A model generated the notes under the pieces. It ran no database searches. It saw only the letters and a program-made list of their open reading frames with translations, and was not told the origin of the DNA. Below, piece after piece: positions 11,004-30,338 of a stretch of 42,721 nucleotides of DNA. The translations under genes were made by a program, and so were the position numbers. This stretch comes from Ruminiclostridium sp. (lineage in GTDB: Bacteria > Bacillota > Clostridia > Oscillospirales > Oscillospiraceae): contig JAFZEB010000121.1 in the NCBI GenBank assembly GCA_017560855.1, positions 1 through 42,721 of the forward strand, in the 5' to 3' direction. Numbering within the stretch: the stretch's first letter is position 1; each line of letters begins with the position of its first letter.

Positions 11004-11026
11004 TGGTGCGGATAACGGGACTTGAA
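11004..11026 (-). repeat. att core, tRNA-distal copy (duplicated tRNA-Leu 3' end)
   Basis: Identical to 30255-30277; on the minus strand it is followed by a hairpin/T tract (10973-11003), the likely original tRNA terminator. Confidence 0.92.
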
Positions 11027-11123
11027 TGGGTTGGATTGCTTTTCACATCCTCTCATAAACTCCAAAAAAGCTTGATATTATTGACTTTTTTAGTGTTACC
11101 CTTTTGCAACCTTTCACAACTTG

Positions 11124-11164
11124 TAGCGGACAAAAACGCAAATAGCGGACAAATAGCGGACAAA
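11124..11164 (+). repeat. Integrase arm-type site candidates (TAGCGGACAAA x3)
   Basis: Copies at 11124, 11143 and 11154; the same motif occurs twice at 30165-30186 near the other att. Confidence 0.75.
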
Positions 11165-11277
11165 TTTTGAGCCTTTTCGAGCGGGAATCGTTTTGCTGCG
11201 CTACAAAATTTATATCGCCGAAGCTGCCGGTAACGACCACACAGATCTTTATTCCTTCGCTCACTTTTTTGTTCACT

Positions 11278-12129
11278 CTAGTACATGGCTTCAACAGGCG
11301 CATACTTTGTATCATTGACTGACTCGTACCCAATGTCCTCATCCTGAATGAGCCAGTATCCTAACACCGCCGGAGTCGTCATGTAGTATATCGTTGGATT
11401 GCAATTCTCGTAGTTCCGAATAGCTCGGTCCACGGCCCTTATCACATACTGATCGCCGACCATCGTTTCATCTGAACACTCCAAAAGTTTCTGCGCAAAC
11501 ACCATCCGCTTGGCCTTATTCTCCTCGGGGTGATCTACACCCACAAAAAAAGGATAGGCTTGATCGATATACCAGTCCACGACAGAAAGCATTTCTGATG
11601 CTCGGTCATGGCCATATTCCCGAGTCACCTCTTGGAAAATGCTCTCTCGAGCTTCCCTTTTGCATCTTTCCTCAGTGTGCAGCTCAGCTAGCTGAGCCTT
11701 TGTTACTTTCTCTTCGTTAGTCTTTGAGTTAGTCTCTGGTATAGCTCGGGTCACATTGACCTCTTCCATCGGGTCAAATTGACCTGATGGCGCATATGTT
11801 CCAAGCTTCTCATAATCGATACGATACCACTTTGTCCGGTCCATCTTGGCCTTGTTGTAATTCCCGCTCACCAACAAACCGGACTTTTCCAAGCCAGTAA
11901 AGATGCGCTTTACGGTACTTTCGGACCACCAGGGAAACTGCTCGGTCCATCCAGAGTAGGAGTTATAAACCCAGACGTAACCATCTCTGATGTTCCGCCG
12001 GTCTTTCCTGTTCTTCTCCAGCCAGTAATGTACTTGCTGCAGCACTATGGCCTCATTCAACCCAACCGCTTCTGCAAGTGTCGGCAGTACAAGTATTGGA
12101 GGCTCATCGAAAAGAAGCCTGCTATACAC
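11278..12129 (-). CDS. Phage-type replication initiator / replisome organiser (winged-helix N-terminus)
   Basis: LLFDEPPILVLPTLAEAVGLNEAIVLQQVHYWL...WVYNSY..W..QFPWWSESTVKR...DRTKWYRIDY; internal palindromes GGTCA(C/A)ATTGACC at 11749 and 11772. Confidence 0.75.
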   Translation of the reverse strand: MYSRLLFDEPPILVLPTLAEAVGLNEAIVLQQVHYWLEKNRKDRRNIRDGYVWVYNSYSGWTEQFPWWSESTVKRIFTGLEKSGLLVSGNYNKAKMDRTKWYRIDYEKLGTYAPSGQFDPMEEVNVTRAIPETNSKTNEEKVTKAQLAELHTEERCKREARESIFQEVTREYGHDRASEMLSVVDWYIDQAYPFFVGVDHPEENKAKRMVFAQKLLECSDETMVGDQYVIRAVDRAIRNYENCNPTIYYMTTPAVLGYWLIQDEDIGYESVNDTKYAPVEAMY

Positions 12130-12156
12130 CTTTGCACCTCCTGTTCGGCAACTCCC

Positions 12157-12408
12157 TTACTCATCAACAGCCTCAACCCGCCCTGTTCCGCGTATCTCGT
12201 TGCCGTAGTCGCAATGTGGACAATTTTTCCGATACGTCAGCAACCCGTCAGGGCCACTGATCATACGAACCAAGCGCTTTGGATCTGGCATCTTCTCCAC
12301 CTGATAAAACGGACTACTCATATGACTTCTTGCGGGTTCAAAATACTCCCACTCAAATAACTTTCCACATCTTTTACACCGGTGAGTTCCTGCATCAACT
12401 ACGGGCAT
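12157..12408 (-). CDS. Small zinc-ribbon protein (CxxC...CxxC)
   Basis: CKRC and CPHC motifs; ATG overlaps the upstream stop (TGATG). Confidence 0.6.
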   Translation of the reverse strand: MPVVDAGTHRCKRCGKLFEWEYFEPARSHMSSPFYQVEKMPDPKRLVRMISGPDGLLTYRKNCPHCDYGNEIRGTGRVEAVDE

Positions 12409-12596
12409 CAAATCTCCTCCTTATCCCGCTCGATCTGGTTGTTGATCGCCCGGTTGATGAATGCGTTCACGGATTCGCCACGGCTGGAGGCGTGGGCCTG
12501 TACGTTTTCCTTTTCTCCTTTGGGGACTCTAATCTTTATCTCATCATAAGTCTTTGCGTTCCATTTATCTTTGACTGCGCTCGAAGTTCTTCCCAT
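12408..12596 (-). CDS. Ribbon-helix-helix (Arc-like) DNA-binding protein
   Basis: YDEIKIRVPKGEKENVQAHASSRGESVNAFINRAI; RBS GAGGTG. Confidence 0.8.
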   Translation of the reverse strand: MGRTSSAVKDKWNAKTYDEIKIRVPKGEKENVQAHASSRGESVNAFINRAINNQIERDKEEI

Positions 12597-12645
12597 AGTG
12601 TTCACCTCACCCATAATGTTTTGCCCATAGTATACCACATTCTAT

Positions 12646-12735
12646 ATACTGGGTACAGTATGCAAGTTCCACAAAACATACTGGGTACATTTATCCATTA
12701 CGCCGATTTACATACTGGGTACAGTATGCTATGAT
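12646..12735. promoter_or_regulatory. Divergent promoter region with three palindromic operators ATACTG-GGTA-CAGTAT
   Basis: Copies at 12646-12661, 12678-12689 (partial) and 12712-12727; the last sits in the spacer of TTTACA(12707)-17-TATGAT(12730). Confidence 0.7.
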
Positions 12736-12856
12736 AACACCATAGAGAGGGACGGCAACTCGCAGACAAAACCCGGCAACCCGTGACACCGATATGTGCA
12801 GGAGATAAAGGCACGAACAACGGGCACTCCACCAACAAACTACAGGAGGTACAGCA

Positions 12857-13057
12857 ATGAATAGCAACATAATCCCCATCCAGGCAAACCGTCGCCACGA
12901 CGACCAGGACGTTTTCCTCAGGGCTTGCAACAGCCCCGCACAACAGGCCAGACGGGAACGACGCCGCAAGGCCCAGCAGAGAAAGACTCAGCTGACCACC
13001 GCGGCCCTGCACACCGCATTGATCGTCCTGGGCATGATCCTGGGCGCACTGATCTGA
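12857..13057 (+). CDS. Small hypothetical protein, basic with a C-terminal TM helix
   Basis: RBS AGGAGG; ends in hydrophobic LHTALIVLGMILGALI. Confidence 0.65.
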   Translation: MNSNIIPIQANRRHDDQDVFLRACNSPAQQARRERRRKAQQRKTQLTTAALHTALIVLGMILGALI

Positions 13058-13071
13058 AGGAGGTACACACC

Positions 13072-13341
13072 ATGAGCAACACTGAACTGACCGCCATGAT
13101 CCGAGAGCTGAGAGAATTGGAAGCTCTAATCGCAGAGGCCCAGGCAGAAGCGGAATCCATCAAGGATAGCCTGAAGGCCCACATGGGTGACCAGGAAGAA
13201 CTGAGAGCAGGAGAGTACAAGGTTACCTGGAAGCCTGTCACCTCTTCCCGTCTGGATGGCAAGGCTCTCAGAGCCACCTTCCCAGAGGTCGCCGCTATGT
13301 TCACCAAGCAGACCACCACCCGCCGCTTTGTGGTGGCATGA
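13072..13341 (+). CDS. Small coiled-coil protein resembling the C-terminal region of YqaJ-like phage exonucleases
   Basis: RBS AAGGAGG; coiled coil, then YKVTWKPVTSSRLDGKALRATFPEV...TRRFVV. Confidence 0.6.
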   Translation: MSNTELTAMIRELRELEALIAEAQAEAESIKDSLKAHMGDQEELRAGEYKVTWKPVTSSRLDGKALRATFPEVAAMFTKQTTTRRFVVA

Positions 13342-13459
13342 AAAAGGCCCCATATCCAACACGCCGACCAAAGCCTTTGGATATGAAGCCCGAACCACCC
13401 CGAGGGGGTCAAGGTCATTGTACCACGGCCCCCTCCAAGAAATCAAGGAGGAAATCCCA

Positions 13460-13636
13460 ATGACCGACAAACCCAACATCCAGAGAATCACCGAGCGGAT
13501 CAACCGCTGCGAAAATCCCAGGCGCACTCTTGCCGCTCTCTGCGCCATCCTGGCCATCACCCAAAACCGCAATGAACTCACCCCGAATGCTATACGCGAC
13601 ATTCTTGAAAGCCAGCACACGAACGAGACAGCATGA
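13460..13636 (+). CDS. Small hypothetical protein (58 aa)
   Basis: RBS AAGGAGG; followed by a hairpin GAGGCTC..GAGCCTC and T tract. Confidence 0.55.
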   Translation: MTDKPNIQRITERINRCENPRRTLAALCAILAITQNRNELTPNAIRDILESQHTNETA

Positions 13637-14202: not shown

Positions 14203-14231
14203 TTGCTAATATCATCTTTGTGTAATATAAT
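14203..14231 (+). promoter_or_regulatory. Promoter of the toxin-antitoxin-like operon
   Basis: TTGCTA-17-TATAAT, 17 nt upstream of ATG 14249. Confidence 0.6.
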
Positions 14232-14248
14232 AATTTCTGGAGAATACT

Positions 14249-15047: not shown

Positions 15048-15074
15048 CTGACCGGTATTCTAGGAGGTAACTAA

Positions 15075-15314: not shown

Positions 15315-15355
15315 TAAACTCCCCGTTTACTGTGCCCATCCATCAGAAACGGTGT

Positions 15356-15573: not shown

Positions 15574-15602
15574 AAAAGAGGACCGGGAAACCGGTCCTCT
15601 TT
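15574..15602 (-). terminator. Terminator immediately after the giant gene
   Basis: AAAAGAGGACCGG-GAAA-CCGGTCCTCTTT, with A/T tracts on both sides. Confidence 0.75.
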
Positions 15603-15605
15603 GCT

Positions 15606-18600
15606 TTACCCGTTCTTGGCGTAAGCCCAGGGGTTGTTCTTGTCGCTGGTGTAGAAGCGATGGAACAGCAGGTAGCACTGATGGGCGGTGTACTCGCCAC
15701 TGTTGTAGTGGGTGTAGATTTCCGCTTTGATTTTGTCCTGCTTACCCTTGCCGCTGATCTGCTTGCCTTTGGAGTCGTACTCCGTAGTGAAGGAACCGAG
15801 GGTCTCCAGGATGCCTTCTACTTCCTCCCGCTTCTCTTCAGGGAAGTCGGCATAGAAGCTGGGGGCATTCTTCTCGGCTTCAATCTTAGCGGCAATATCA
15901 GTCAGGGCATCCTCGCTCATGCTGCGGAGTTTTCCACTGATCTCCAAAGCACCATACACAGCGGTCTGCTGTTCGTCGGTGTAGCTGTCCAAGAGGCCGG
16001 ACTCCCTTACAGTCAGCAGCTTCTTGTAGGCGGCAGAGTCAGAGATCTCCTCGCCGTCCACGTTCTTGTCGCTCTTGATGACACTGGTCATGCCGTAGAG
16101 GGTGAAGAACGTGCCAGGATCGACCTGGTGGTTCTCCTCCAGGCTCTTGGCCTTGACCATAGCAGATTCATCCATCACGAACTTGCCACCGGAGACATCC
16201 TCCAGTGCCGTCTGGGCGGCATACTTCCACAGCTGGCTGATGACCTTGTCCTTCGCCTTGTCGTCCATCTCGCCCCAGACAGGGCTGTTGGTGACAGCAT
16301 CCTCGTACCGGCGGTAGGACTCTGCTCTCTGCTGCATGAAACGATTGTACTCCTCGGCATTCAGGTTCTTTGCGCTGAACTCCTCTTCCTTTTCTTCCTC
16401 TTCGGCGTACTCAGGCAGGATACCGATGAGATCCTCCAGGGTCTGGGTGGGCTGATACTCAGGATCCTCCTCCATCTGCTTCTCGGTGTGGGACTTCATG
16501 GCGGACTCGATGGTCTGTCCATTGACATCATCAGGGAATGCATCCATCAGGTCCTGGCTGATCTGAACAAAGGTCTCCTTGTCGCCGTCACGCCACGCCA
16601 GATAGGCAATGTCCAAGAACATGCCCTTGTTGCCGGAGTAGTTCACATCGTACAGGACCTTCGCCACGGCGTACTGACCCTTGTAGTTATCGGTAAGGTT
16701 CAGCCAGGTGTTGATGCCAGCCATCACATCTCGCTTGATGTTGGAGACAGGGGTGCCCAGGAAGCGGGACAATTCGGCGGCCAGGTTGAGCAATGCGTTA
16801 GCCGGAGTCATCTTCCCCTCGCCGTTGAGGGACTTGATGCAGTTACCCACAGCCAGGACGACATTGGAGATGGACTCCATATCCATTCGGCTGACATCGT
16901 AGCCTTCGACCAGGGAAACGACATCCTTCACGAAGGGTAGGTAACCGAAGGGGTTCAGAGCCTTGCCCATGTTGCCAGAGGCAATGGACTTGACCTTGTC
17001 CATCTTGGTCTCCTCATCACCCTCCAGGCCGACAAACGCCTGGAAGAATTTCTCCCAGTATTCCTCGTCCTTGTCGTCGTCACGGAATGCGTCCACCAGA
17101 GACTGGGCGGCAGCATTGGCAACGAAGGAGATGAACAGGGCCACAGAGGTCCGAGCCATCGTCTTTCTCGCCTTCTTGCGGAAAGCATTGTCCTGGCTCT
17201 TTCTCATGTCGTAGGCAGCCGTAGTGAACATGTTGAAGATCTTGGTAGGCTCGGCCATAAAGCTGGTGGCCATCTTAGTCACGCCATCAGGGGAGCGCAT
17301 GACCTGGGATCTCTGGAGGATACCGTCCACCACCTGAGTATGGTCCACAACTTCGTTGAACCGCTCGGCAACCTTCTTGTAGAATGCATCGCTGCCCTTC
17401 TGGAGGTCCTTGTGCTTCCGAGCGGTCTCCACCTCCAGAGCATTCCAGATGTGGCTCCAGGCCAGGGAGTCCATCGCACCAGCCGGTGCCATCAGGGCGT
17501 TGTTGACCTTTGCAATTCCGGAGTCATCACCGAAGAGGATGGACTTCATCTGTCTGCCGGTGTCAGCATCAAAGTAGCCCCAATCCTTCCACACAGCGAT
17601 GGGCGCGTACTCTTTTACCTTCTTCCATGTGTTGGGGTTTGCTTTGGTAATGCCAGCCATGAAGTCGGCCATGCTGATGCTGTCCAGCGCGCGAAGGATG
17701 GAGGTGGGCTGCTGCACGAACACGCGGAGGTTTGCGCCGATAGCAGATGCTTTATAGTTACCGATCAGAGCCTGGAAGGGGTTGTCGTTGACACCCTTCA
17801 TGCCGTTGTTCAGGTCCTCGGTCAGCTTCTTCCAGTATGCCTCGCCATTCTGGCCGTAGATGCGGTGGATCAGGCCCTTCACGGTCCCGGTAAGGTTGCC
17901 CTCATCATCCCGGAACTTGAAGTTGAAGATGCGCTGGAGGTTCTCCATCGGAGCCAGCCAGGAGCTATAGGTGGCCATGTCCGTCACATGGTCGGCGTAC
18001 ACATCGAAGATATTGCGAACCATCAGTGCGTTGTTGGCATGAGGCTTTGTACCCTTTGTGAAGCCGCGCCCTGCAATGGTGGCAGACACAGCATCCTTCG
18101 CCTGGTCAGAGATCGTCTGGTTGGAGTCTACCTTGATGGGGAAGTAGTTCTTCTCCTCGAACTTCTCGTAGCCGTAGACCTCCATGCTGGCCTCGTTGCC
18201 CAGCTGAGACAGTCGGTCACCCATGAACTTCTGGAGACCATCAGCAATCTCAATCTGCTTGGGGGTCAGGACTTCCAGGATCTCTCCCACCTTTTCAGGG
18301 GAGACACGGACGGCCTCGGACATACCCTTCTTCTTCAGGCCCTTGCTGACAGCCTCCACACGGATGCCGCCTTCCACAACGTGGTCAACAGCCTGCTGTC
18401 TCTTCATCAGCTCATACAAGGACATGATCTGAGCGGTAGTCATGGTGACCTGCTGACCTTCCACATCGAAAGTATGGGGCTCCTTCTCCAGCTTGCGGAC
18501 ATCCACATCCTTGACCACCATTTCGGTGTACTTCTGAGCCTCCTGCATGAGGCCGATGTGCTTGTCCTGGGCATTGCGGAGCATTCGGAAGATGCTCTCG

Positions 18601-21600: not shown

Positions 21601-24600
21601 TAGGACTTTCCTTTCGGCACCATACTGCGAACCAACCTGTTGTACATGGAAGCGAACTGGTCTGCCACCTCGGTGACACGGAATCTCTTGGCATCCACGA
21701 AGCACAGGGAGCAGGCCGTCTCAAAGCCGTGGCGGCGGATGATGTCGTTCAGCACCACGATGGACTCCTTGTCCAGGGCGAACTTCTCGGCAAGACCCTG
21801 TTCAACCAGAGAATTGAGGACGGCATCCAGAGGTCTGCGCTTCTTGCACACCAGGGAGAAGTCCATGTTCATGGGGTAATCGCCATTGGCTTTGACCACA
21901 GAGAATACGGGGTCACCATTGTCGTCCCGGACGACCTCCGCCTCGGACCACTTGCCAAAAGGAGCATAGACATCGGTATACTTGTTGCAGATGTCGTAGA
22001 TCCGGTCCATCTCCTTGATCATGTCTTTCGCATCCCTGCCATCCAGGTCGCCAGCCTTCACTCGGTCGGCCAGCCATCGGCCAAGAGTGTCTCTGCCGCC
22101 CTCTCGGTAGGTCTTGAGGGAGTATCTGGAGTGGCCGTTGCCGTCATCATAGACCATACCAGTCTGAGATGCATTGCCGCCCTTCTCCAGCTTCTTCACC
22201 TGCTTGCTTGCTTCGCTCACAGCCTTTTCCAGCAAGGTCACAGCATCGTTGACCTGTGCCTTACGTCTGCCGGTCAGCTTGGCTGCCAGGTCCTTCAGGG
22301 CAGTCAGGAAGCGACTCAGCATGGACTGGTTCTTCTGGTTCTGGTCGATGAATCGCTTCATTAGGTCCTTGCTCTCGATAAGCTGACCTGCATAGTCGGC
22401 AACGATCTCATCGATTGCGCCCTCGGAATCAATGTCGACACCACGGCTTCTATATACTGCCAACTTACTCTGGACCTCATCCTGGGCTTTCTGGGAAGAC
22501 ATGACATAATCCCGGAACTTCCGGTAGCTCTCAGGATCCAGTTCCTGGACACGGTGGGTCATCTCATGACCGAAAAGGAACCGAACAGGGTGAGGATTGC
22601 CCTTCTCTATGCTTACCACACTGCCCTGAATGTCTGCGTTGGCTTCGCCGCCCTTAACGGAATCCACCATCTGGACGCGGAGGCCCAGCTGCTTGGCCAC
22701 AGTGTTGATCTCGGATGCCACGGCGGTGTCCATCTCGGCCTTCACATAGTCGTCATAGACCAGGCCGGAGTCCTTGCCAGCCACAGGTGCGAACTGAGCG
22801 GCAGTCTTTGCTTCTTCCAGGGATGCCTGTCGGTCATTCACGCCTGCGTTGTAGGCCGCTGCCACCTGGGCATCAGACAGGGATGCCGGAGCCTGAATCT
22901 TGCTGTCAGTGGTGTCGGCCAGGCCGGTCAGTGCCTGGTTGTACACACGGATGAAGTCAGAAGCATACTGGGCCTGATTACCCTGGCCACTCCAGGCAGT
23001 AGTCATGGCCTTTGCTCCACTCTCACCCAGAGTCGCGGACATATCAACGATGTAGGTGGGGCTGACCACAGCCTGAGTATGCTTCTTGGTCTGGATGGTC
23101 TCAACCTCGACAGGGATGGACTCGATGCGGCGAAGCTTGACCTGCTTGCTCTGTCTACCCTCTCTACGGGCCTGGCCAAGAACGGCTACTTGGCGTTTGC
23201 TTCCTACTTGCTTGCCACTTGCTTCTAACTTGCTTGCAACTTGCTGGTAACTTGCACCGGAGTTACCCTCGGCCCGCCCCTGATTGCCGCGAGTAGACAC
23301 ATACTCCTCACCAGTCTGCATAGCCGTAGCCGCGTCACGGACCTGTTGCTCCTCGGAGGACCGTTCCGTCTGACGTTTCAGAATCTCCTGGATCGTCCGT
23401 CCTTCAGTGCCAGGTACAGAAGAAGCAGAGGCTCCCCTACTTCCGATGACAGAGCCACCAGTTGCCATTGCACCGCCGGAGATTGCGCCGATAGCAACAT
23501 TCTTGAAGAGATCTTCCGTCGACCATACCGCTTCAGGGTCCTGGGCGATCTTATCCAGCGCATAGTTCGCCGCATAAGCGACACCTTCCTCGGTGCCCTC
23601 AATACCCATTTGGGCCAGGATGCTCTTGATCACATTCTGACCGCCTTCACCCTTGAGGATCTTCGCCAGTTTGCTCAACGGCAGTGCTTCCGTGGCCATT
23701 TCAACACCGCCAGAGAGTAGGCCACGAGTGAATGCTTCCTCCGTGTCGAAACCCCGCTCGGTCAGTTCACCAGCCCTTGCACCAGCAGCCTGTGCACCCA
23801 TCAGGCCAGCACCCAAAGCAGGGCCAACACCGGGGATCAGAGACAGACCGATACCAGGCAGGTTCTGACCCATCGAAAGGGCAGTCTCCATAAGAAGTCT
23901 GTCTACTCCCTCCAGGCCGTCCAGGGCTTCTTCCTGATACTCCCAGCTCTTCCGGAGCATCTGCTCACCCTTTGTCCCGGCATCCATCAATGCCTTGCTA
24001 GTACCATCGGTCCGAGCGGGACCAGGATCACGAGTCCCCCACCGCTCCTGGGCCTGTTCACGAACGAAGTCGCCACCCAACTCAGAGAAGCGCAGAAGGG
24101 CAGCCGGTACGCCGTACCCCACTGCCTTCGCGGCGGCAATAGCTCTGGCCTCGTCTTCTTCCCTCTGCTGACCGGAGAGAAGAGGGCGGCCATGTGCATC
24201 CATTGTTTCCATGTCAGCTCCGGGGTCGTTCTGGTAGCTGGATCCATTTTTGATATCAAGGATCCTCTGGGATGCCTTCATCTGAGCCTGGATATCCCCG
24301 GCCTCAATAGCCCTCTGTCGGTCCAGCCTCGCCTTCTTCAGCTTGTTCTGGCCGGTCTGGTTTAGAGTGCGCTTCTCGTCCCGGGTCAGGTCAGCGGTGA
24401 TGTACTCACTGCCGTCCCAACCGCCAGAGTAACCGGCCCAGCCACGGACATTCTCCGCCTTCTCATGAGCACGGCGCATCCCCTCGGTGTCACCGGCATC
24501 CTTTGCCTTCTGCCACGCATCCTTTGCCTCCTGAACCATCTGTCGGCGGGAGGAGGGCAGCTTTTTATCGGCAGCAGAAAGGACATAAGAGTCCAGTTTC

Positions 24601-25034
24601 TGTTGTCTGACCACACGTTCCTCGGCGGCCCTGCGCAGATTCTCCAGCGCGTCATCGTTATCGTAAGTTCTGGACCTGTTCGCCAGGACTCCAGCAGAAT
24701 CTCCGATGGAATATCTGGCCCGGATGACATCCAGGGGGCTGTAGAGCCGACCGGAATCATCGGTCATCCGACGATATGTACTGCCCGTGCCACCCATGTC
24801 ATCCAGCAAAGAGGATGTCTTCTTGGTCACCGTCTTGGTGAGAGTGGGCTTCCCGCTTTTTACCGGGGTCTGTACTTCGTTCCTGACCACTTTGGTGGGT
24901 GTCACCCCGGGGAAGGTCTGATGGTTCTTGGCAGCGTTGGCCAGCTGTGCGGCCGCCAGCTTACGGACCGCCTCCTCTTCCTTTTTCTTTTTGTTGGCAG
25001 CGATAATCTTCGCCTGGGCATCCGTCAATGCCAT
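15606..25034 (-). CDS. Giant (3142 aa) phage-type polyvalent / internal-virion-like protein with HEXXH peptidase, radical-SAM-like and ADP-ribosyltransferase-like modules
   Basis: Uninterrupted 9.4 kb ORF with RBS GGAGG and a terminator; Gly/Ala-rich hydrophobic N-terminal region; GHEMTH; C..CSLCFV..RIQSFSD..YTK..NLSL; VYHGT..GFDGF..AVFSPEQLK; three YSLK linkers; long helical C-terminal half. The CDS is certain; domain names are by-eye assignments. Confidence 0.8.
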   Translation of the reverse strand: MALTDAQAKIIAANKKKKEEEAVRKLAAAQLANAAKNHQTFPGVTPTKVVRNEVQTPVKSGKPTLTKTVTKKTSSLLDDMGGTGSTYRRMTDDSGRLYSPLDVIRARYSIGDSAGVLANRSRTYDNDDALENLRRAAEERVVRQQKLDSYVLSAADKKLPSSRRQMVQEAKDAWQKAKDAGDTEGMRRAHEKAENVRGWAGYSGGWDGSEYITADLTRDEKRTLNQTGQNKLKKARLDRQRAIEAGDIQAQMKASQRILDIKNGSSYQNDPGADMETMDAHGRPLLSGQQREEDEARAIAAAKAVGYGVPAALLRFSELGGDFVREQAQERWGTRDPGPARTDGTSKALMDAGTKGEQMLRKSWEYQEEALDGLEGVDRLLMETALSMGQNLPGIGLSLIPGVGPALGAGLMGAQAAGARAGELTERGFDTEEAFTRGLLSGGVEMATEALPLSKLAKILKGEGGQNVIKSILAQMGIEGTEEGVAYAANYALDKIAQDPEAVWSTEDLFKNVAIGAISGGAMATGGSVIGSRGASASSVPGTEGRTIQEILKRQTERSSEEQQVRDAATAMQTGEEYVSTRGNQGRAEGNSGASYQQVASKLEASGKQVGSKRQVAVLGQARREGRQSKQVKLRRIESIPVEVETIQTKKHTQAVVSPTYIVDMSATLGESGAKAMTTAWSGQGNQAQYASDFIRVYNQALTGLADTTDSKIQAPASLSDAQVAAAYNAGVNDRQASLEEAKTAAQFAPVAGKDSGLVYDDYVKAEMDTAVASEINTVAKQLGLRVQMVDSVKGGEANADIQGSVVSIEKGNPHPVRFLFGHEMTHRVQELDPESYRKFRDYVMSSQKAQDEVQSKLAVYRSRGVDIDSEGAIDEIVADYAGQLIESKDLMKRFIDQNQKNQSMLSRFLTALKDLAAKLTGRRKAQVNDAVTLLEKAVSEASKQVKKLEKGGNASQTGMVYDDGNGHSRYSLKTYREGGRDTLGRWLADRVKAGDLDGRDAKDMIKEMDRIYDICNKYTDVYAPFGKWSEAEVVRDDNGDPVFSVVKANGDYPMNMDFSLVCKKRRPLDAVLNSLVEQGLAEKFALDKESIVVLNDIIRRHGFETACSLCFVDAKRFRVTEVADQFASMYNRLVRSMVPKGKSYPVASFNFGGDKTVKKVSGGIDTMKDGDLNFKEIEKTIRTTGEKSVAHKIAVHLRDNPADRKLVRRGDFISTAGFDRVKKDNPALLSLYNSKKGSAGPKASFSDVQYLSEILEQKFFKRDAAYAVGGVRIQSFSDYMPRLFFDYAQMIADLAAKKLPAHGYTKEALFAQQFGQTGVKINLSLVPKVVEGGVAPGLDANGNYVWQEGQSFGSAVSDKDNGKAGFDLAVQIQNAEGYGDNCGTIAVGVSDKHIEKMLDDPDIRMIIPYHKSGLNPIVAAMNKIDKFENYTNYQNTRSKKTGKKVDAHFDFNTELQKLGDAKAAADAYLAWCEENGYLPKFDIPSRKFFPSQHPNYYKLLIDFSAYNSDGKATPQGDVRIQYPQEGDAFGSLNDLIKQGLEEDALAQAKLDKGVKPILDDVEKELSARDTEWANSGKKYSLKIDSEGRPLSDRQVEFFSESQVRDNLGFLQIVYHGTKNPGFTQFDTWEGAWVSPNREYAEAYAAEGSQPYELYANITKPADLGELNVPLDEKVGRRLAEAIGVSYSALRKDVSRLSGQFAYELTKGRYFVKLARQKGFDGFMATEAGVETWAVFSPEQLKEVGNTNPAGSGDIRYSLKGISGYENLVEKFDDIPKRTKASRPKTVEEQALVDDMYYGRKAEERRVKSKEAVAEAKQEGRDAVRAARAEGREAVREARAEGREAVKAVRAEDRETKRIAVQKAKFDQKARDEERIRNLRERKNTQIADIKAKHRERIKLVKAEGRAERDAAVSKVKEHYKGKEAKARESRQARELRNKIVRHVNDLRKKLITPSDNQHIPKKLEPAVANLLACINMESGYAYDPATMRQVIRKDGKSGGMVGKHVPKGQGTPTARTKAFQELRLAYEKILSEADQQMVIDPDLMTNIQEMEALKDTPIGDLTVSQLTTMWNTIRAVEASITSYNKLFGQQKFETIREVAEGLKADNAGKRDRGDYRGPIGAMDKLINAGMLTPESYFHRLGKTGESIFRMLRNAQDKHIGLMQEAQKYTEMVVKDVDVRKLEKEPHTFDVEGQQVTMTTAQIMSLYELMKRQQAVDHVVEGGIRVEAVSKGLKKKGMSEAVRVSPEKVGEILEVLTPKQIEIADGLQKFMGDRLSQLGNEASMEVYGYEKFEEKNYFPIKVDSNQTISDQAKDAVSATIAGRGFTKGTKPHANNALMVRNIFDVYADHVTDMATYSSWLAPMENLQRIFNFKFRDDEGNLTGTVKGLIHRIYGQNGEAYWKKLTEDLNNGMKGVNDNPFQALIGNYKASAIGANLRVFVQQPTSILRALDSISMADFMAGITKANPNTWKKVKEYAPIAVWKDWGYFDADTGRQMKSILFGDDSGIAKVNNALMAPAGAMDSLAWSHIWNALEVETARKHKDLQKGSDAFYKKVAERFNEVVDHTQVVDGILQRSQVMRSPDGVTKMATSFMAEPTKIFNMFTTAAYDMRKSQDNAFRKKARKTMARTSVALFISFVANAAAQSLVDAFRDDDKDEEYWEKFFQAFVGLEGDEETKMDKVKSIASGNMGKALNPFGYLPFVKDVVSLVEGYDVSRMDMESISNVVLAVGNCIKSLNGEGKMTPANALLNLAAELSRFLGTPVSNIKRDVMAGINTWLNLTDNYKGQYAVAKVLYDVNYSGNKGMFLDIAYLAWRDGDKETFVQISQDLMDAFPDDVNGQTIESAMKSHTEKQMEEDPEYQPTQTLEDLIGILPEYAEEEEKEEEFSAKNLNAEEYNRFMQQRAESYRRYEDAVTNSPVWGEMDDKAKDKVISQLWKYAAQTALEDVSGGKFVMDESAMVKAKSLEENHQVDPGTFFTLYGMTSVIKSDKNVDGEEISDSAAYKKLLTVRESGLLDSYTDEQQTAVYGALEISGKLRSMSEDALTDIAAKIEAEKNAPSFYADFPEEKREEVEGILETLGSFTTEYDSKGKQISGKGKQDKIKAEIYTHYNSGEYTAHQCYLLFHRFYTSDKNNPWAYAKNG
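19470..19590 (-). repeat. 33-bp / 11-aa tandem coding repeat in the giant protein
   Basis: QEGRDAVRAAR-AEGREAVREAR-AEGREAVKAVR-AEDRE. Confidence 0.7.
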
Positions 25035-25048: not shown

Positions 25049-25558
25049 TCATAAGCCGAGTTCCTTCTTCCGCTGTTCTAATTCAGCTTCGTTGGCCCTC
25101 TCGTAGTAGTCGGACATGATTGCGGCCAATGTGCACCGCTTCCACTCGTTGTTCTCACCTGCGCAAAAACGGTGCGTATGTTCCCGCTCGGCCTGCCGGT
25201 CAGGGAATGTGATCCGGCCTGCCTCGCATTTGACAACTCGTTTCGCATCATAGGAAAAATAGGGACAAGCCCAACCGAGATGTGAATAACCCAATGGTCT
25301 ACCTCTCTTTCCGCCCTGCTTGTCGTCGCAGAGCTGTCCATGTCTTTGTCTCGTCCCAGCCGCCTTCTTCTGCCACTCCTTTTGGAGTTTGGCAACATAC
25401 GGGGCAGAGCTGGCAGATTCGCGCTCCATGCCAATCTTACGCCCCATCGCCGCCAGCCATCGTGCCAGCTCCAGGTCTTCCCTGATTACTTCGATGGCCA
25501 GCTTATAAATCCCCCGCTTCACACGTTCTTCTGCGTGAGACAGGTTTTCGTGTGCCAT
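25049..25558 (-). CDS. Hypothetical phage-type protein with a C-terminal four-cysteine motif
   Basis: ATG 25558 after GGAGGTGG; CPYF..KCE...FC...WKRC. Confidence 0.65.
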   Translation of the reverse strand: MAHENLSHAEERVKRGIYKLAIEVIREDLELARWLAAMGRKIGMERESASSAPYVAKLQKEWQKKAAGTRQRHGQLCDDKQGGKRGRPLGYSHLGWACPYFSYDAKRVVKCEAGRITFPDRQAEREHTHRFCAGENNEWKRCTLAAIMSDYYERANEAELEQRKKELGL

Positions 25559-25697: not shown

Positions 25698-27002
25698 TCA
25701 ACCCCTGCCATACGAAGCTTTGACATACCGCCCGCTCTGAGGATACCAGCCGTAGCACAAATCCCCAGTGCCGGCGTGACGGTTCTTTGCCACCAGGAGA
25801 TCTACCATGCGCGGATCCCACGGTTTTTGGTCGGGGTTAGGCTGCTGATAGTAATCCTCACGGTGGAGGAACATGACAGCATCAGCGTCCTGTTCGATTG
25901 CCCCCGTGTCCCGAAGGTCAGATAGCTGGGGCCGTTTCTCCTTGCGATCCATATTCGCCCGGTTAAGCTGGGCAAGACACAGAACGGGCACTCCACGGCG
26001 ACGGGCAAGAGCCTTGAGCGAACCGGATACGGCCGTCATATTCTCGTAGCGGCTGCTCCCCTTCTCGTCCGGACGAATCAATCCCAGGTAGTCAACCACG
26101 ATGCACCGCAAATCGGGCACCCGCCTAGCAAGAGTGTCGATGTCGGCAACACGGACAGACTCGGCTTTATTTACATACAAAGGCCGTCGGCTGGTCTCCA
26201 GCAGCGCATCGGTGACCTCGTCATACTCCTTTTCATTCAGTTCACCCATCAGCAGTCGGCTGGCCGAGACACCCGTAACACGCGCCAGCCTTTTTGCTGT
26301 AAGCTGGTCTGCGTCCATCTCTAGGCTCACGAAAAGAACCGCGCCGACCTTCTCCGCGATTTGGTCCGCCACGGACAGGGCAAAGGTGGTCTTGCCTACC
26401 GCCGGACGAGCGGCTAGGATGTATAACCCACCGCAGAGCATCCCACCACCCAGCAACTTGTCCAGGTCGGAGTAGCCCGTGGGGACAAAGTTCCTGGCCC
26501 CGGCATCGATCCGAGAGCGAAGATCAAAGAAGCTGGAAACCTGATCTGCGGGAGCTAGGATTTCCCGCCGTGTGTCGCAAGAGTCAATCTCAGCCAAAGC
26601 GGCCTGCACAGCGGACATCATCGCTTGCGGATCGCCGTGGGAAGCCGCATCCTCGCGGAGTCTCTCGGCCACCTCGAACAATCTCCGGCGCAAAGAGGAG
26701 TTCCTGATCTCATCGGCCAGCCCTCGAAAATTCGTGGTTGTGACGGTGGCCTCCATGAGGCTGGCAAGGTAGGCCGTATCCACAATCCCGTTTGCCCCAC
26801 GATGAATCTGCACCGGGTCGATCGGCCGCCCTAGCTGATGGAGAGTCAGCGCAGACTGGAAAGCCGCCCGATTCCGCTCGTCTTGAAAGTCATCCGGCGA
26901 GAGACTGTCCGCCAGGTCCGCGATGATGGACGAATCGAAGAGGAGGCATCCGATAAGCGCCGACTCAGCCTCGAAGGCAAGAGAAAAGATTGAACCGCTC
27001 AT
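25698..27002 (-). CDS. dnaB: Replicative DnaB-like helicase (element-encoded)
   Basis: ILAARPAVGKTTFA (Walker A), VSLEM, VVDYLGLI, LAQLNR, LSDLRDTGAIEQDAD, KNRH. Confidence 0.95.
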   Translation of the reverse strand: MSGSIFSLAFEAESALIGCLLFDSSIIADLADSLSPDDFQDERNRAAFQSALTLHQLGRPIDPVQIHRGANGIVDTAYLASLMEATVTTTNFRGLADEIRNSSLRRRLFEVAERLREDAASHGDPQAMMSAVQAALAEIDSCDTRREILAPADQVSSFFDLRSRIDAGARNFVPTGYSDLDKLLGGGMLCGGLYILAARPAVGKTTFALSVADQIAEKVGAVLFVSLEMDADQLTAKRLARVTGVSASRLLMGELNEKEYDEVTDALLETSRRPLYVNKAESVRVADIDTLARRVPDLRCIVVDYLGLIRPDEKGSSRYENMTAVSGSLKALARRRGVPVLCLAQLNRANMDRKEKRPQLSDLRDTGAIEQDADAVMFLHREDYYQQPNPDQKPWDPRMVDLLVAKNRHAGTGDLCYGWYPQSGRYVKASYGRG

Positions 27003-27670
27003 GTGAAGACCACCTCCCCGTTCTCATCGACAAAATGCCCCGTCACCCGGCGAGGTTCTTCCGTCTGAGTCCCAGCACCATTTAGGAGAACATCGTTCCG
27101 TTCCCAGGTCCTGACAGCGGCGCGCCAGTCGGAAATCTTGGTCTTCCCCCTCATCCAGCCAGAGGCCTCGTAATGAGCCAGGAACCGTTGCGGGTCCACA
27201 CTGTTGCCCCGTTCTCGGCAGTATGCCCGAACCTCGTCCAAAGAAGGAGGAACGAAACGGTTTTTCTTGGGCGACTCATTCGCCCCCAAGAATTCCTTCT
27301 CCGTCTCCTTCTCCGTCTCCTTCTCTTGGTTTTTGCCGGGTTTCCTTTCGGTTTCTCTTGGGTTTTCGTTGGGTTCCTCCTGGGTTTGGCTTGGGTTTTT
27401 ATTGGGTTTCTGTTTGGTCGGCCTACCGCCTCTTTTTCCATTCTCCACATTTACCTGATACCGCTTCACTGATGCATCAACATTCGGGCGCAGCAAAGAA
27501 AAGCAACAATTCAACAGTGGAGGTAGGTCTGGCTCCTTCCCCTGGAAGACATAGTCAAGGATGGCGTCGAATAAAGCGAGCCGTTCCTCGTCAGGTAATG
27601 GGCGCAACGCGTCATAGTAGGATGGCAAGAACGTAAATCCGCATCTGTCAGTACCCACACTGCTCACCAC
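26999..27670 (-). CDS. Phage replication initiator (DUF6291-like N-terminus, conserved phage C-terminal domain)
   Basis: FTFLPSYYDAL...ILDY...NGKRGGRP, a low-complexity linker, then FVPPSLDEVRAYC...F..HYEASGW...DWRAAVRTWERN; translationally coupled to dnaB. Confidence 0.8.
   Translation of the reverse strand: MVSSVGTDRCGFTFLPSYYDALRPLPDEERLALFDAILDYVFQGKEPDLPPLLNCCFSLLRPNVDASVKRYQVNVENGKRGGRPTKQKPNKNPSQTQEEPNENPRETERKPGKNQEKETEKETEKEFLGANESPKKNRFVPPSLDEVRAYCRERGNSVDPQRFLAHYEASGWMRGKTKISDWRAAVRTWERNDVLLNGAGTQTEEPRRVTGHFVDENGEVVFT
27325..27420. repeat. Iteron array with exact 11-bp period inside the initiator gene (candidate origin)
   Basis: GG of a (T/G/C)GGT(TT) motif ends at 27329, 27340, 27351, 27362, 27373, 27384, 27395, 27406 and 27417. 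Confidence 0.7.
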
Positions 27671-27963
27671 CCATCGATTCGTTCTTGTCCCAGAGCCTCC
27701 AGCAGGGTCCGCTCCATAGCATTGGCAGCAGCCACAGTCTCCATCGCTCGATGGCGCATGGATCGGATAAAGCGAACCAGCTCTTCCGAAGACTCCGGCA
27801 GGTAGAATCCACCACGGTCCGTGTTCGTCACGATCGGCAGACCGCGCTTGCGTTCACGAGCAACCAGTCGGCGCACCTCACGGTCCGTCAGGCCGGTGAT
27901 AGCCGCCAAGTCCCGCCGGGACAGGGCATTCTCTGCGCCCCAATCAAGCAATTCGTAGATCAT
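27664..27963 (-). CDS. HTH-containing phage protein
   Basis: GAENALSRRDLAAITGLTDREVRRLVARERKRGLPI...GGFYLP. Confidence 0.75.
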   Translation of the reverse strand: MIYELLDWGAENALSRRDLAAITGLTDREVRRLVARERKRGLPIVTNTDRGGFYLPESSEELVRFIRSMRHRAMETVAAANAMERTLLEALGQERIDGW

Positions 27964-28199
27964 GCTCTCACCTCCAGTCTCCGAATTTCACCCATCACCG
28001 AGGTAGAGCCGACAACATCGCCAGCCTCCAGGTAGCTCTCCAGATCTTCGATAGCCACCAGGCGTTTGGTACCCACGGCAGTAAATGGCAGCTTGCCTTC
28101 CAGTACCAGTCTCCGGATGGCGGTCTTGGTCAAAGCAGTGCCAGGGTCAATCTCCTGCATGTAGGCCGCTGCCTGGGGAATGGTCCTCATGCGCTTCAC
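27960..28199 (-). CDS. Excisionase-like (Xis/AlpA-type HTH) protein
   Basis: MRTIPQAAAY...TAIRRLVLEGKLPF..VGTKRLV...LESYL. Confidence 0.75.
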   Translation of the reverse strand: MKRMRTIPQAAAYMQEIDPGTALTKTAIRRLVLEGKLPFTAVGTKRLVAIEDLESYLEAGDVVGSTSVMGEIRRLEVRA

Positions 28200-28387
28200 T
28201 GAAGCTCCCTCCTTTCGTCCACGATAGCCCGGATGGCTCCCAGGGCCTTCTCAGTGTCTTCGGCCGACAGTTCCCGCCGAAGACGGCGATGCCAGGTGGA
28301 TTCGGACATCCCCAGCTTCTCTGCGATGGCCCACAGCGGAACTCCTAAACGACAAGCTTCGGAACGGACCTCGATATTGCACCTCAT
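28196..28387 (-). CDS. Cro-like HTH regulator
   Basis: GVPLWAIAEKLGMSESTWHRRLRRELS; RBS AAGGAGG; first gene of the operon divergent from the integrase. Confidence 0.75.
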   Translation of the reverse strand: MRCNIEVRSEACRLGVPLWAIAEKLGMSESTWHRRLRRELSAEDTEKALGAIRAIVDERRELQ

Positions 28388-28405
28388 GAAAACAACCTCC
28401 TTTGC

Positions 28406-28439
28406 GGCCCTTGACAAACGGGCCATGTGATGTTAGGCT
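28406..28439 (+). promoter_or_regulatory. Candidate integrase promoter with an inverted repeat around the -35 box
   Basis: GGCCC-TTGACA-AAC-GGGCC; TTGACA(28411)-17-TAGGCT with a TG extension. Confidence 0.5.
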
Positions 28440-28726
28440 GACGGCGAAAGCATGTAATCTTCGTCGTCGCAACCATGATAACCAATCGTCGGACATATCT
28501 CGCCCCCGCTTTTTTGAGATTTTTCTTGCAAAAACGTGTTCAATTGCCCTTATTTCATCCCGATTTCCACCGATTCAAATAAGTTTCCTTAGCGGCAATC
28601 CACCACACAAAACTTTGTTCATCTCACGCAATATGGAGATTGAATTTTATAAAAAATGACGAATGCACATAACTTCGAATTGCAAGCTATCGAAGGATAT
28701 CCACCATAGACGAGGAGGACACATCT

Positions 28727-30118
28727 ATGGCTACAATCAAGAAGAGAGAGGGTAAAAATGGAGTGAGCTACCTCATCCGCTCCTCCTGCGGCTATGACCT
28801 CTCTGGCCGCCATATAGAAAAGAGCATGACATGGAAGCCCTCCCCCGGCATGACTCCTCGACAGATTGAAAAGGAGCTGAACCGACAGGCCGTCCTCTTC
28901 GATGAGCATTGCGCAGCCCAGGGTGTCCAAAACGGGAACATCAAGTTCGAGGCTCTTGCCAAGCAGTGGCTGGAGGAATACGCAGAGCCGAATCTCCGGC
29001 CTCGCACTGTAGCCCGACTCCATCAGCTGGAGGATCGGACTTACCAGGCCATCGGCCACATCCGTGTGGACAAACTCACCGCCCGTCATATCCAGAAATT
29101 CATCCACAATCTGGGGGAAGAAGGGATCTCCTCGGTAAAGGACAAGGCCAAAGCAAAGCCTGGTCTCACCTCTCTTCTGGCAGAGATGAACCTCACGCAG
29201 AAAGCACTCTCCGAACAGATCGGTGTGTCCCGCTCGGTCCTATCTGCCATTTGCAGAGGAGAAAGCACCACCTTCGCATCGGCAGAGAAGGTGGCCAAAG
29301 GACTGGGAAAGCCCGTGTCCGACCTCTTTGTGGTCACCAAAGCAAAGACCACCCTGTCTCCCAAGACCATCAAGCACTACCTTTCCTTCATCTCCGATGT
29401 CATGCAGTATGCCGTGCGCTTTGATATGATCCCCTCCAACCCCTGCAATCGGGTCACCGTCCCCAGCGGGACACAAGCCGAGCGGGAGGTCTACTCCCTG
29501 GAGGAGGCACAAAGCTTCTTGGATAGCCTGGAGAAAGCCCCCACAAAATACCGGGCATTCTTTGTCCTGGCCATCTACGGCGGTCTGCGCCGGGGAGAGA
29601 TCCTGGGCCTGGAGTGGAAGGACTTGGACTTCGAGAACCATGTCATCAAGGTCCAGAGAACCAGTCTGTACTCCAAAGACCTGGGGACCTTCACTGATAC
29701 CACGAAGAATAAGACCAGCATCCGCAGTCTCAAGCTGCCGGCTGCCGTGTTCGCCATCCTCCGGCAGCACAGAGCCGAACAGGCAGAGGATCGCCTAAGA
29801 CAGGGTGACCACTGGCAGGACCATGACCGGCTCTTCACCAACCTCAACGGTGAGCCGATGCACCCCAATACCCCATACCACTGGCTGAAGAGATTCTGTG
29901 AGGAGACCAACCAGCGATTCCTGGGTGTCCATGCCTTCCGTCATCTGAACGCCTCCCTGCTGATCAATGCCGGAGCCGATGTCACTCTGGTGTCCAAGAG
30001 CCTGGGTCACAGCCAGGTATCCACCACACTGAACATCTACTCCCACACATTTGAGGAGGCACAGGCCAGAGCCAGCGAGGCCATCGCGGATATCCTAACC
30101 TTCCAGAAAAAAGCATAA
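28727..30118 (+). CDS. int: Tyrosine recombinase/integrase with an inserted XRE-type HTH domain
   Basis: GLRRGEILGL, HAFRH, LGHS and LNIYSH catalytic motifs; N-terminal arm-binding region; HTH LTQKALSEQIGVSRSVLSAICRG at ~29162-29329. Confidence 0.95.
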   Translation: MATIKKREGKNGVSYLIRSSCGYDLSGRHIEKSMTWKPSPGMTPRQIEKELNRQAVLFDEHCAAQGVQNGNIKFEALAKQWLEEYAEPNLRPRTVARLHQLEDRTYQAIGHIRVDKLTARHIQKFIHNLGEEGISSVKDKAKAKPGLTSLLAEMNLTQKALSEQIGVSRSVLSAICRGESTTFASAEKVAKGLGKPVSDLFVVTKAKTTLSPKTIKHYLSFISDVMQYAVRFDMIPSNPCNRVTVPSGTQAEREVYSLEEAQSFLDSLEKAPTKYRAFFVLAIYGGLRRGEILGLEWKDLDFENHVIKVQRTSLYSKDLGTFTDTTKNKTSIRSLKLPAAVFAILRQHRAEQAEDRLRQGDHWQDHDRLFTNLNGEPMHPNTPYHWLKRFCEETNQRFLGVHAFRHLNASLLINAGADVTLVSKSLGHSQVSTTLNIYSHTFEEAQARASEAIADILTFQKKA

Positions 30119-30120
30119 GA

Positions 30121-30159
30121 AAAGGGCTGTACCCAAAGCGGATACAGCCCTGTTTTTTT
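30121..30159 (+). terminator. Terminator after the integrase gene
   Basis: AGGGCTGTA-CCCAAAGCGGA-TACAGCCCT followed by a T tract. Confidence 0.75.
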
Positions 30160-30164
30160 GCCCG

Positions 30165-30186
30165 TAGCGGACAAATAGCGGACAAT
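30165..30186 (+). repeat. Integrase arm-type site candidates (TAGCGGACAAW x2)
   Basis: Same motif as 11124-11164. Confidence 0.75.
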
Positions 30187-30254
30187 TCATGTTTTGCAAG
30201 GAAAAAGAAAAACCGAAAACCCTTGATACTCAAAGGTTTTCGGCTCTTTGTAGC

Positions 30255-30338
30255 TGGTGCGGATAACGGGACTTGAACCCGTACGTCATGGACACACGCC
30301 CCTCAAACGTGCCTGTCTACCAGTTCCAGCATATCCGC
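30255..30338 (-). tRNA. tRNA-Leu(GAG), integration target
   Basis: Reverse complement GCGGATATGCTGGAACTGGTAGACAGG-CACGT-TTGAGGG-GCGTG-...GGTTCAAGTCCCGTTATCCGCACCA. Confidence 0.97.

What the first reader, a model, noticed from the sequence alone, without database searches (positions are those of the whole stretch)
11004..30277. Phage-satellite-like element whose main cargo is a giant virion-type polyvalent protein
Seen: intact att duplication in tRNA-Leu, integrase, and a tightly packed divergent operon (cro-xis-HTH-initiator-dnaB-Cys4 protein-3142 aa gene) ending in a terminator. About 49% of the element is one gene. I recognise no capsid, portal, terminase, tail, holin or relaxase. Established: PICIs share the int/regulators/xis/replication layout and place helper-interference or packaging genes after the replication module, and giant polyvalent proteins (e.g. 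P1 DarB-type) are packaged and injected with phage DNA. Inference: this satellite encodes its own ejected/internal virion protein in the slot where PICIs carry packaging genes. It may be loaded into, or replace the equivalent protein of, helper virions, to control DNA entry or deliver anti-defence enzymes on arrival. I know of no described satellite class with this strategy.
Basis: partly seen in the sequence, partly recalled or inferred. Interest (0 to 1): 0.92.

Follow-up and report, generated by a model that had tools for sequence, protein, structure and literature searches.

The report
Satellite carrying giant phage injection protein
This 19-kb island in a gut bacterium sits in a tRNA gene, forms excised circles in close relatives and has no genes for a virus shell or tail, yet half of it encodes a giant protein of the kind short-tailed phages likely inject with their DNA, so it is likely a phage hitch-hiker that swaps in its own injection protein.

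Summary
Observation confirmed. The element is 19,251 bp, with a 23-bp att repeat in tRNA-Leu, an int-cro-xis-HTH-initiator-DnaB-Cys4 operon, and a 3,142-aa gene 14 bp after Cys4. No virion or lysis genes were found.

It is not a misassembly or a one-off. Contigs from two other studies bridge the Cys4-giant junction at 94-95% identity, two runs hold the attP joint and two the empty site.

The backbone is a PICI-like satellite family. The nearest integrase (81%) is on a 9.6-kb circle with the same att. Sister elements carry TerS or a tape-measure gene in the giant's slot.

The giant is a polyvalent ejection-type protein. Its homologs normally end podophage virion operons; 0 of 67 loci have Cys4 or DnaB beside it.

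Virion loading is inferred, not shown. A mobilised, deleted phage-satellite hybrid remains possible, and such remnants exist (L105, L097).

The strategy has precedents: PLE tape-measure swapping and EcCIMP1. This scan noted four similar islands on other DNA. Verdict: a new variant, the short-tailed, Gram-positive version.

The parts
11004..11026 (.). att core, distal copy (23 bp)
   Evidence: exact repeat of 30255-30277; attP joint 30254->11004 with 23 shared bases in runs X4, X9; empty-site joint in X8, X13
11124..11164 (.). three 11-bp repeats, likely integrase arm sites
   Evidence: same motif twice at 30165-30185
11278..12129 (-). second replication initiator-like gene (accessory)
   Evidence: phrog_6493 E 2e-46; skipped by a joint in X8, little or no cover in X4, X5, X8, X9
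12157..12411 (-). small Zn-ribbon-like ORF (accessory)
   Evidence: skipped in X8
12408..12638 (-). ribbon-helix-helix regulator shared with sister elements
   Evidence: phrog_13890; 72% in L162, 53% in L220
12857..13636 (+). three small genes (66, 89, 58 aa), conserved right-end module
   Evidence: the 89-aa gene is 85% identical in L220 and L025 and 80% in L024
14249..15314 (+). RelE/Gp49-like gene, XRE-HTH gene and 79-aa ORF: likely toxin-antitoxin cargo (accessory)
   Evidence: PF05973 E 1e-4, HTH_3 E 8e-11; replaced by 320 other bases in X5
15575..15602 (-). intrinsic terminator-like hairpin after the giant gene
15606..25034 (-). giant polyvalent ejection-type protein, 3,142 aa
   Evidence: phrog_22978 E 2e-248; homologs end podophage virion operons; GGGAGG ribosome site in the 14-bp gap
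16485..19436 (-). conserved C-terminal module of the giant (res 1867-2850), weak likeness to podophage core/ejection proteins
   Evidence: model pLDDT 71.7; VIA Z 7.4 over 213 residues to T7 core chain 9jyy_I and Z 6.7 over 218 to PhiM1 ejectosome 8vb2_A; Foldseek E 0.052, not significant
19788..20219 (-). ART-PolyVal ADP-ribosyltransferase domain (res 1606-1749), swappable cassette
   Evidence: PF18760 E 2e-15; skipped between two YSLK linkers in X5 and X9
20301..22109 (-). GP88-like cassette with a radical-SAM-like fold (res 976-1578)
   Evidence: model pLDDT 91; top 16 VIA rows are radical-SAM enzymes, best Z 7.3 QueE; Atlas lead GP88 0.86; 1,894 representatives
22110..23057 (-). zincin-like region (res about 660-975) with HEMTH at 823
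   Evidence: motif in sequence; HExxH in the consensus of A3; no Pfam hit
25049..25558 (-). Cys4 protein, likely late-gene regulator
   Evidence: homologs lie upstream of the terminase operon in 10 of 14 genomes; also in a 6.5-kb element without virion genes, L158
25698..27002 (-). DnaB-like helicase
   Evidence: PF03796 E 4e-70
26999..27670 (-). DUF6291 replication initiator with 11-bp iteron-like repeats at 27321-27419
27664..27963 (-). HTH gene typical of the small-element family
   Evidence: phrog_2113; best homologs in 7-14-kb elements
27960..28199 (-). excisionase
   Evidence: TIGR01764 above cut-off
28196..28426 (-). cro-like HTH
28727..30118 (+). tyrosine integrase with HTH insertion
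   Evidence: 81% to L162, support 100/99
30255..30338 (-). tRNA-Leu(GAG); its 3' 23 bp are the proximal att core

Best explanation
This att-bounded 19.3-kb element excises in close relatives and is likely a helper-dependent, PICI-like phage satellite whose giant protein would be packed into the heads of a short-tailed helper phage in place of the helper's own DNA-injection protein. Steps: (1) Site-specific integration at tRNA-Leu and excision to a circle are shown in relatives by contig joints. (2) Replication from iterons by the initiator and DnaB is inferred from gene content. (3) Co-transcription of Cys4 and the giant with the replication operon is inferred from the 14-bp gap. (4) Assembly of the giant into helper procapsids through its conserved N- and C-terminal modules is inferred from where its homologs sit and from a weak fold match to T7 and PhiM1 core proteins. 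(5) Packaging by the helper terminase, perhaps as a 38.5-kb dimer in a head built for a genome of about 35-44 kb, is inferred; no pac site was found. (6) On infection the protein would help carry the DNA in and deliver swappable enzyme cassettes (zincin, radical-SAM-like, ADP-ribosyltransferase); this is inferred and the targets are unknown.
For: Excision and precise ends: attP joints in X4 and X9 (one study), empty site in X8 and X13 (two studies). Junction: bridged at 94% in X5 and 95% in X8, two studies other than the probable source. P0003 (Cys4 relative) and P0005 (giant, 85% N-terminal identity) both list an 11,840-bp contig, too short for a virion operon if it is the same contig. Selection: 36 of 45 listed giant substitutions and 10 of 13 in dnaB are synonymous. 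Accessory genes come and go while the giant stays. Backbone: the integrase is sister to a 9,595-bp circle with the same att, xis, initiator and right-end genes but TerS and a portal-like gene in the late slot (L162). A 14.2-kb att-bounded element in the same genus has the same gene order with a tape-measure gene in the giant's place (L220). Tape-measure genes also occur in L175, L195, L225 and L229. Giant homologs: 28 of 37 scanned loci have head, tail or internal-virion genes just upstream. Precedent: PLEs load their own tape-measure protein (bioRxiv 10.1101/2025.01.29.635557, passages read).
Against: No packaging, expression or virion data. No terS or pac site was found, and there is no CI repressor. 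None of 67 giant loci in IMG/VR and GTDB repeats the Cys4-giant adjacency, and no second complete element was retrieved. Independent deletion remnants exist: L105 has an early gene fused to an ejection gene and a giant split in two frames; L097 has a 5'-truncated giant among host genes; L150 lacks terminase and portal. Weaker HTH and initiator homologs occur in giant-carrying phage loci L040, L042, L045, L053 and L121. L024 has a MALTD-type giant next to the same right-end module (81-85% DNA identity) but preceded by another ejection-like gene, so the right arm may have come as a block from a phage. The substitutions counted are a small listed subset of about 2,300 rows, and some may come from helper-phage alleles; X5 shows much more depth on the giant's C-terminal half than on dnaB. 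The fold match to core proteins is middling. No helper prophage was found in the own 74%-complete genome.
Confidence: 0.55

Rival explanations
1. Deleted prophage or phage-satellite hybrid. One deletion from the end of Cys4 to the giant's ribosome site removed the virion and lysis genes. The element still excises and may be mobilised, but the giant is a passenger.
For: In complete prophages the order is Cys4-terS-terL-portal-capsid-tail-ejection-giant, and in some the lysis genes lie before the giant, so one deletion could suffice. Similar remnants arise independently (L105, L097, L150). 0 of 67 giant loci repeat the layout. The repressor is missing.
Against: The 9.4-kb ORF is intact with a ribosome site; listed changes are mostly synonymous; the indels at the X5 junction contig net to six bases. 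The left arm matches small elements, not phages. Cys4 also occurs in a small element without virion genes.
Confidence: 0.25
2. Interference decoy. The giant is made during helper infection to poison helper virions (a dominant-negative core protein), or its ADP-ribosyltransferase stops the infection, protecting the host; the satellite need not use it for its own entry.
For: Iyer et al. 2017 propose that polyvalent proteins left in host genomes may be used defensively (PMC5512222, section 6 read). PLE11 Rta blocks helper tail assembly (passages read). The giant is mosaic with alleles that may be from phages: 86-93% identity in the C-terminal module of P0005, P0009 and P0014.
Against: A decoy would not need full-length payload cassettes that are swapped at linkers as in phage copies. 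The ART domain is absent from variants in X5 and X9.
Confidence: 0.15
3. Assembly chimera of a host island and a phage contig.
For: The genome is a 74%-complete metagenome bin.
Against: A single 10,458-bp contig spans giant to att with 0 differences, and diverged contigs from two other studies bridge the same junction.
Confidence: 0.02

Closest known systems
PLE satellites of Vibrio cholerae (PLE11 chimeric tails; bioRxiv 10.1101/2025.01.29.635557, passages read)
   Same: A satellite without its own capsid encodes a virion protein related to the helper's and, shown by proteomics there, puts it into its particles.
   Different: PLE swaps tape measure, chaperone and baseplate hub of a long-tailed lytic phage in a Gram-negative host. 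Here it is one 3,142-aa internal-core-type protein with enzyme cassettes, a presumed temperate podophage helper and a gut clostridial host; no other PLE feature was looked for.
EcCIMP1, E. coli PICI mobilised by Kapi1 (PMC11773190, passages read)
   Same: Functional PICI with genes downstream of its primase that resemble DNA transfer proteins of its helper.
   Different: Their role was not established there. It has an AlpA/primase backbone; here an initiator-DnaB backbone and a single giant polyvalent protein.
PICIs (SaPI-type layout; definition recalled, packaging points from PMC6893505, passages read)
   Same: att integration, xis, replication module, a late slot after it, accessory cargo at the far end, no capsid or lysis genes.
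   Different: No Stl/CI repressor, no terS, 19 kb, and the late slot holds an ejection-type protein.
Phage-type polyvalent proteins (Iyer et al. 2017, PMC5512222, section 6 and passages read)
   Same: HExxH zincin-like region plus ART-PolyVal; homologs carry PBECR, LPD3 and MuF-C cassettes and sit in portal-terminase operons.
   Different: The paper names plasmid/ICE, phage and context-free settings; the word satellite does not occur in its main text. The 600-aa radical-SAM-like cassette has no Pfam family.
EPIPs of Mycolicibacterium (bioRxiv 10.64898/2025.12.02.691453, passages read)
   Same: Small satellites that encode a tape-measure protein; the analogue of the sister elements found here (L220, L225, L229, L175, L195).
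   Different: EPIPs encode terS, adaptors and a serine integrase; this element has none of these.

Membership tests
PICI | Tyrosine integrase and direct-repeat att at a fixed chromosomal site | tested here: met
   same site used by L162, L017, L018
PICI | Excises and circularises | tested here: met
   attP joints in relatives X4, X9; empty site in X8, X13; not seen in the source runs
PICI | Excisionase and own replication module with origin | tested here: met
   TIGR01764; DUF6291 initiator, DnaB; 11-bp repeats
PICI | No capsid, tail or lysis genes | tested here: met
   the giant itself is a predicted virion protein
PICI (Gram-positive type) | Stl-like master repressor divergent from cro/xis | tested here: not met
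   no repressor ORF in 28427-28726; sister elements have one
PICI | Own terS or other packaging-redirection gene | tested here: not met
   no terminase hit; L162 and L229 have terS
PICI | Induced and packaged by a helper phage | not testable with these tools
   needs induction and virion data
Capsid-forming PICI | Own capsid, portal and terminase genes | tested here: not met
Integrative mobilisable element | Relaxase or rolling-circle initiator | tested here: not met
   none among the element ORFs; the 6-kb relatives L017 and L018 carry a rolling-circle-type initiator
Polyvalent proteins (phage type) | Several unrelated enzyme domains in one chain, zincin plus ART | tested here: met
   ART-PolyVal, HExxH, radical-SAM-like fold; the zincin is called by motif only
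Polyvalent proteins (phage type) | Encoded in a portal-terminase virion operon | tested here: not met
   met for homologs, not for this copy
T7 gp16-like ejection proteins | Shared fold with podophage core proteins | tested here: inconclusive
   Z 7.4 and 6.7 over about 215 residues, tied with unrelated helical proteins; no sequence hit in PDB
Radical SAM enzymes | Partial barrel with a three-cysteine Fe-S site | tested here: inconclusive
   fold Z 7.3 or lower; conserved C88, C133, C136 rather than CxxxCxxC; cluster binding untested
Cryptic prophage | Loss of excision and decayed genes | tested here: not met
   intact ORFs, attP joints and synonymous bias

The most novel reading that the evidence does not exclude
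Gut clostridia host a satellite family that parasitises the DNA-entry step. One backbone carries whichever DNA-delivery protein fits its helper: a tape measure for long-tailed helpers, a giant polyvalent core protein for short-tailed ones. The giant version trades enzyme cassettes with helper phages at fixed linkers, so the satellite controls what is injected with its DNA.
Probability: 0.45. Interest if true: 0.85.

Novelty: new variant of a known kind. Interest (0 to 1): 0.68.

Why it matters
Satellites are known to hijack capsid size and DNA packaging, and only recently tail assembly. A satellite that spends half its genome on an internal injection protein would extend piracy to DNA entry and to the enzymes delivered on arrival. 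The sister elements with tape-measure genes in the same slot make the idea testable across one family. The giant also carries a common, unnamed radical-SAM-like cassette (1,894 protein clusters) whose presence in predicted virion proteins is unexplained.

Tried and rejected
Searches that found nothing useful:
- IMG/VR scans with the Cys4 protein, DnaB, the radical-SAM-like cassette and a degenerate pattern for the giant's N-terminus found no relative.
- The metagenome scan with the Cys4 alignment gave 2 weak loci with no other element gene.
- The INPHARED phage search gave 2 short unannotated records.
- PDB sequence searches gave no real hit. Foldseek gave none at E<=0.001 for either model.
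- A search for short Cys4 forms, meant to match contig lengths with close giants, gave 2 proteins on short contigs. The contexts of P0005-P0015 therefore stay unknown; related giants P0075 and P0015 list 43.6- and 42.9-kb contigs that could be complete helpers.
- Portal and phrog_511 searches in 4-5 genus genomes with giants were negative, but the genomes are 69-97% complete and the contigs end early, so this is no evidence.
- Rfam found only the two tRNA-Ser genes. No consensus promoter lies between int and cro.

Signals I did not count:
- Joints 11026->30291 in X1, X3, X4 and X13 have short sides and 14 other letters; these are probably other organisms' tRNAs.
- Low cover on the host flank in X4 and X9, with the attP contig as deep as the element body, is only a weak hint of free or packaged DNA.

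Ideas rejected:
- DarB-type protein: no methylase or helicase domain.
- No complex prediction was run, as no helper partner is known.

Literature: no paper on a Gram-positive satellite with a giant ejection protein appeared or 116 (open-access library only). No supplements were read. The PLE preprint's extended data on tape-measure genes in other satellites may cover the sister elements.


Full report
Observation. The element runs from a 23-bp core at 11004-11026 to its copy at 30255-30277, the 3' end of tRNA-Leu; the unit is 19,251 bp and the giant gene is 49% of it. Arm-like repeats flank both ends and the initiator gene holds 11-bp repeats. The left arm is int, then cro-like, xis, HTH, initiator, DnaB, Cys4 and the giant on the other strand. 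The giant starts 14 bp after the Cys4 stop, behind a GGGAGG site. No virion, terminase, lysis or relaxase gene was found, and there is no repressor between int and cro.

Real and mobile. Twenty runs were listed and 8 laid. A 10,458-bp contig of the probable source run spans giant to att without differences. Contigs from two other studies bridge the Cys4-giant junction: X5 with 122 differences in 2,044 bases, X8 with 49 in 1,040. X4 and X9 (one study) join 30254 to 11004 with 23 shared bases, which is attP. X8 and X13 join 11003 to 30255, the empty site. Variants lack the second initiator (X8), the RelE-like module (X5) or the ART cassette (X5, X9). Of the substitutions the tool listed in these genes, 36 of 45 in the giant and 10 of 13 in dnaB are synonymous. 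These are 80 listed rows of about 2,300, and alleles from related phages may be mixed in.

The giant. It has a HExxH region, a 600-aa cassette, ART-PolyVal and a conserved C-terminal module, separated by YSLK linkers at 970, 1579 and 1756. Eleven close clusters, most starting MALTD, are mosaics at these linkers and have two alternative C-termini. The 600-aa cassette models well (pLDDT 91) and its top 16 structural matches are radical-SAM enzymes, best Z 7.3; it has 1,894 representatives, and nearly all of the best 150 are giant proteins. The C-terminal model gives its longest alignments to a T7 core chain and the PhiM1 ejectosome, at middling Z. I retrieved 67 homolog loci, 27 from IMG/VR and 40 from GTDB, some near-duplicates. 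None had a Cys4 or DnaB hit. Of 42 with upstream sequence, 41 had an ORF of 280 aa or more; I dropped 4 near-duplicates and scanned 37, of which 28 had head, tail or internal-virion genes just upstream. A complete prophage in the same genus reads Cys4-terS-terL-portal-capsid-tail fibre-internal virion-423 aa-giant-holin-amidase. So the giant is normally the last virion gene of temperate podophages.

The backbone. The integrase is sister (100/99) to that of L162, a 9,595-bp circle with the same att core but one base, xis 54%, initiator 53% and the same right-end genes; its late slot holds terS and a portal-like gene (25 of 26 rows entered the tree). The starred clade of seven also holds two 6-kb att-bounded elements, one of about 21 kb, a 10-kb contig and one 73-kb viral contig. 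The HTH gene was found in 1 of 39 genus genomes and 9 of 300 family genomes. The seven loci with enough context are compact elements: four are bounded by direct repeats at 7-14 kb, and no capsid or portal hit appeared among the ORFs I chose to scan; four other loci end too early. L220, in the same genus, has the window's gene order with a 965-aa tape-measure gene where the giant lies. L225, L229, L175 and L195 also carry tape-measure genes. Cys4 homologs were found in 14 of 400 genomes; 10 lie upstream of a terminase operon and one is in a 6.5-kb element without virion genes.

Against. No second complete giant-bearing element was retrieved; the only more distant hint is the shared 11,840-bp contig length of P0003 and P0005. 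Deletion remnants that keep a giant exist (L105, L097). Weaker HTH and initiator homologs occur in phage loci. L024 links a MALTD-type giant and an upstream ejection-like gene to the same right-end module, so the right arm may be a phage block. No terS, pac site, repressor or resident helper was found.

Mechanism. Excision is shown in relatives. Replication, expression, assembly into helper heads, packaging and delivery are inferred. I put 0.55 on the satellite using its own giant in hijacked virions, 0.25 on a mobilised deletion derivative with a passenger gene and 0.15 on a decoy that harms the helper.

Known systems. It works like a PICI but fails two features (repressor, packaging gene), so I do not file it as one. 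PLEs substitute their own tape-measure protein (bioRxiv 10.1101/2025.01.29.635557, passages). EcCIMP1 has DNA-transfer-like genes after its primase (PMC11773190, passages). EPIPs carry a tape-measure gene (passages). Iyer et al. describe polyvalent proteins in phages, conjugative elements and context-free remnants (PMC5512222, section 6 and passages). SaPIs can be packaged as concatemers in large heads (PMC6893505, passages). PMC12084326 and bioRxiv 10.64898/2026.07.08.737213 were read as passages and added nothing specific. Four earlier notes of this scan report similar islands on other DNA; they are unchecked apart from the EcCIMP1 lead. The labels gp16, Stl and late-gene regulator are recalled, not from a call. 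The host is a gut clostridium; most titled relatives are Oscillospiraceae or Clostridia.

Verdict. A real, mobile, satellite-type element with an unusual late gene: a new variant of a known kind, interest 0.68.

Noticed in passing
window 20301-22109 (giant res 976-1578): An unnamed 600-aa cassette with a radical-SAM-like fold and conserved C88, C133, C136 is very common in giant phage proteins: 1,894 representatives, 713 at E<=1e-30, mostly 50-60% identical among the best 150.
   Followed up: partly
L220 951-15158 (G004:C74); L225 1654-11603; L229; L175; L195: Small elements of gut clostridia that carry a tape-measure gene but no capsid gene seen, often with a sigma-factor-like gene; a probable satellite family in its own right.
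   Followed up: partly
L162 (IMG/VR circle, 9,595 bp): PICI-like circle at the same tRNA-Leu site with terS, a HExxH protein and a portal-like gene but no capsid hit.
   Followed up: partly
L105 1806-9427: Prophage remnant in which an early gene appears fused to the end of an ejection gene and the giant is split into two frames.
   Followed up: partly
L097 4742-13937: 5'-truncated giant with two ART-PolyVal stretches and PBECR5, plus an SSB gene, among host genes.
   Followed up: partly
window 28427-28726: No repressor gene and no consensus promoter between int and cro; how the element stays quiet is unexplained.
   Followed up: no
window 12643-12729: Three 21-bp repeats and overlapping inverted repeats upstream of the RHH gene, a likely operator.
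   Followed up: no
window 3612-4003: Two tRNA-Ser(GGA) genes in a 99%-identical 132-bp duplication, 260 bp apart.
   Followed up: no
window 7336-7477, 33635-33727, 42265-42340; 10111-10213 and 30462-30564: Dispersed REP-like palindromic repeats; one family has copies on both sides of the element, outside att.
   Followed up: no
L036 1649-2920: Reverse transcriptase gene within the virion operon of a giant-carrying phage, possibly a diversity-generating retroelement.
   Followed up: no
L109 1994-3232: A RelE-like gene (28% to the window's) and an HTH-like gene also follow a giant gene in another locus.
   Followed up: no
L016 352-8604: Giant homolog with MuF-C and a C-terminal M23 peptidase; L047, L049 and L120 have a cell-wall peptidase on the upstream ejection-sized protein.
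   Followed up: no
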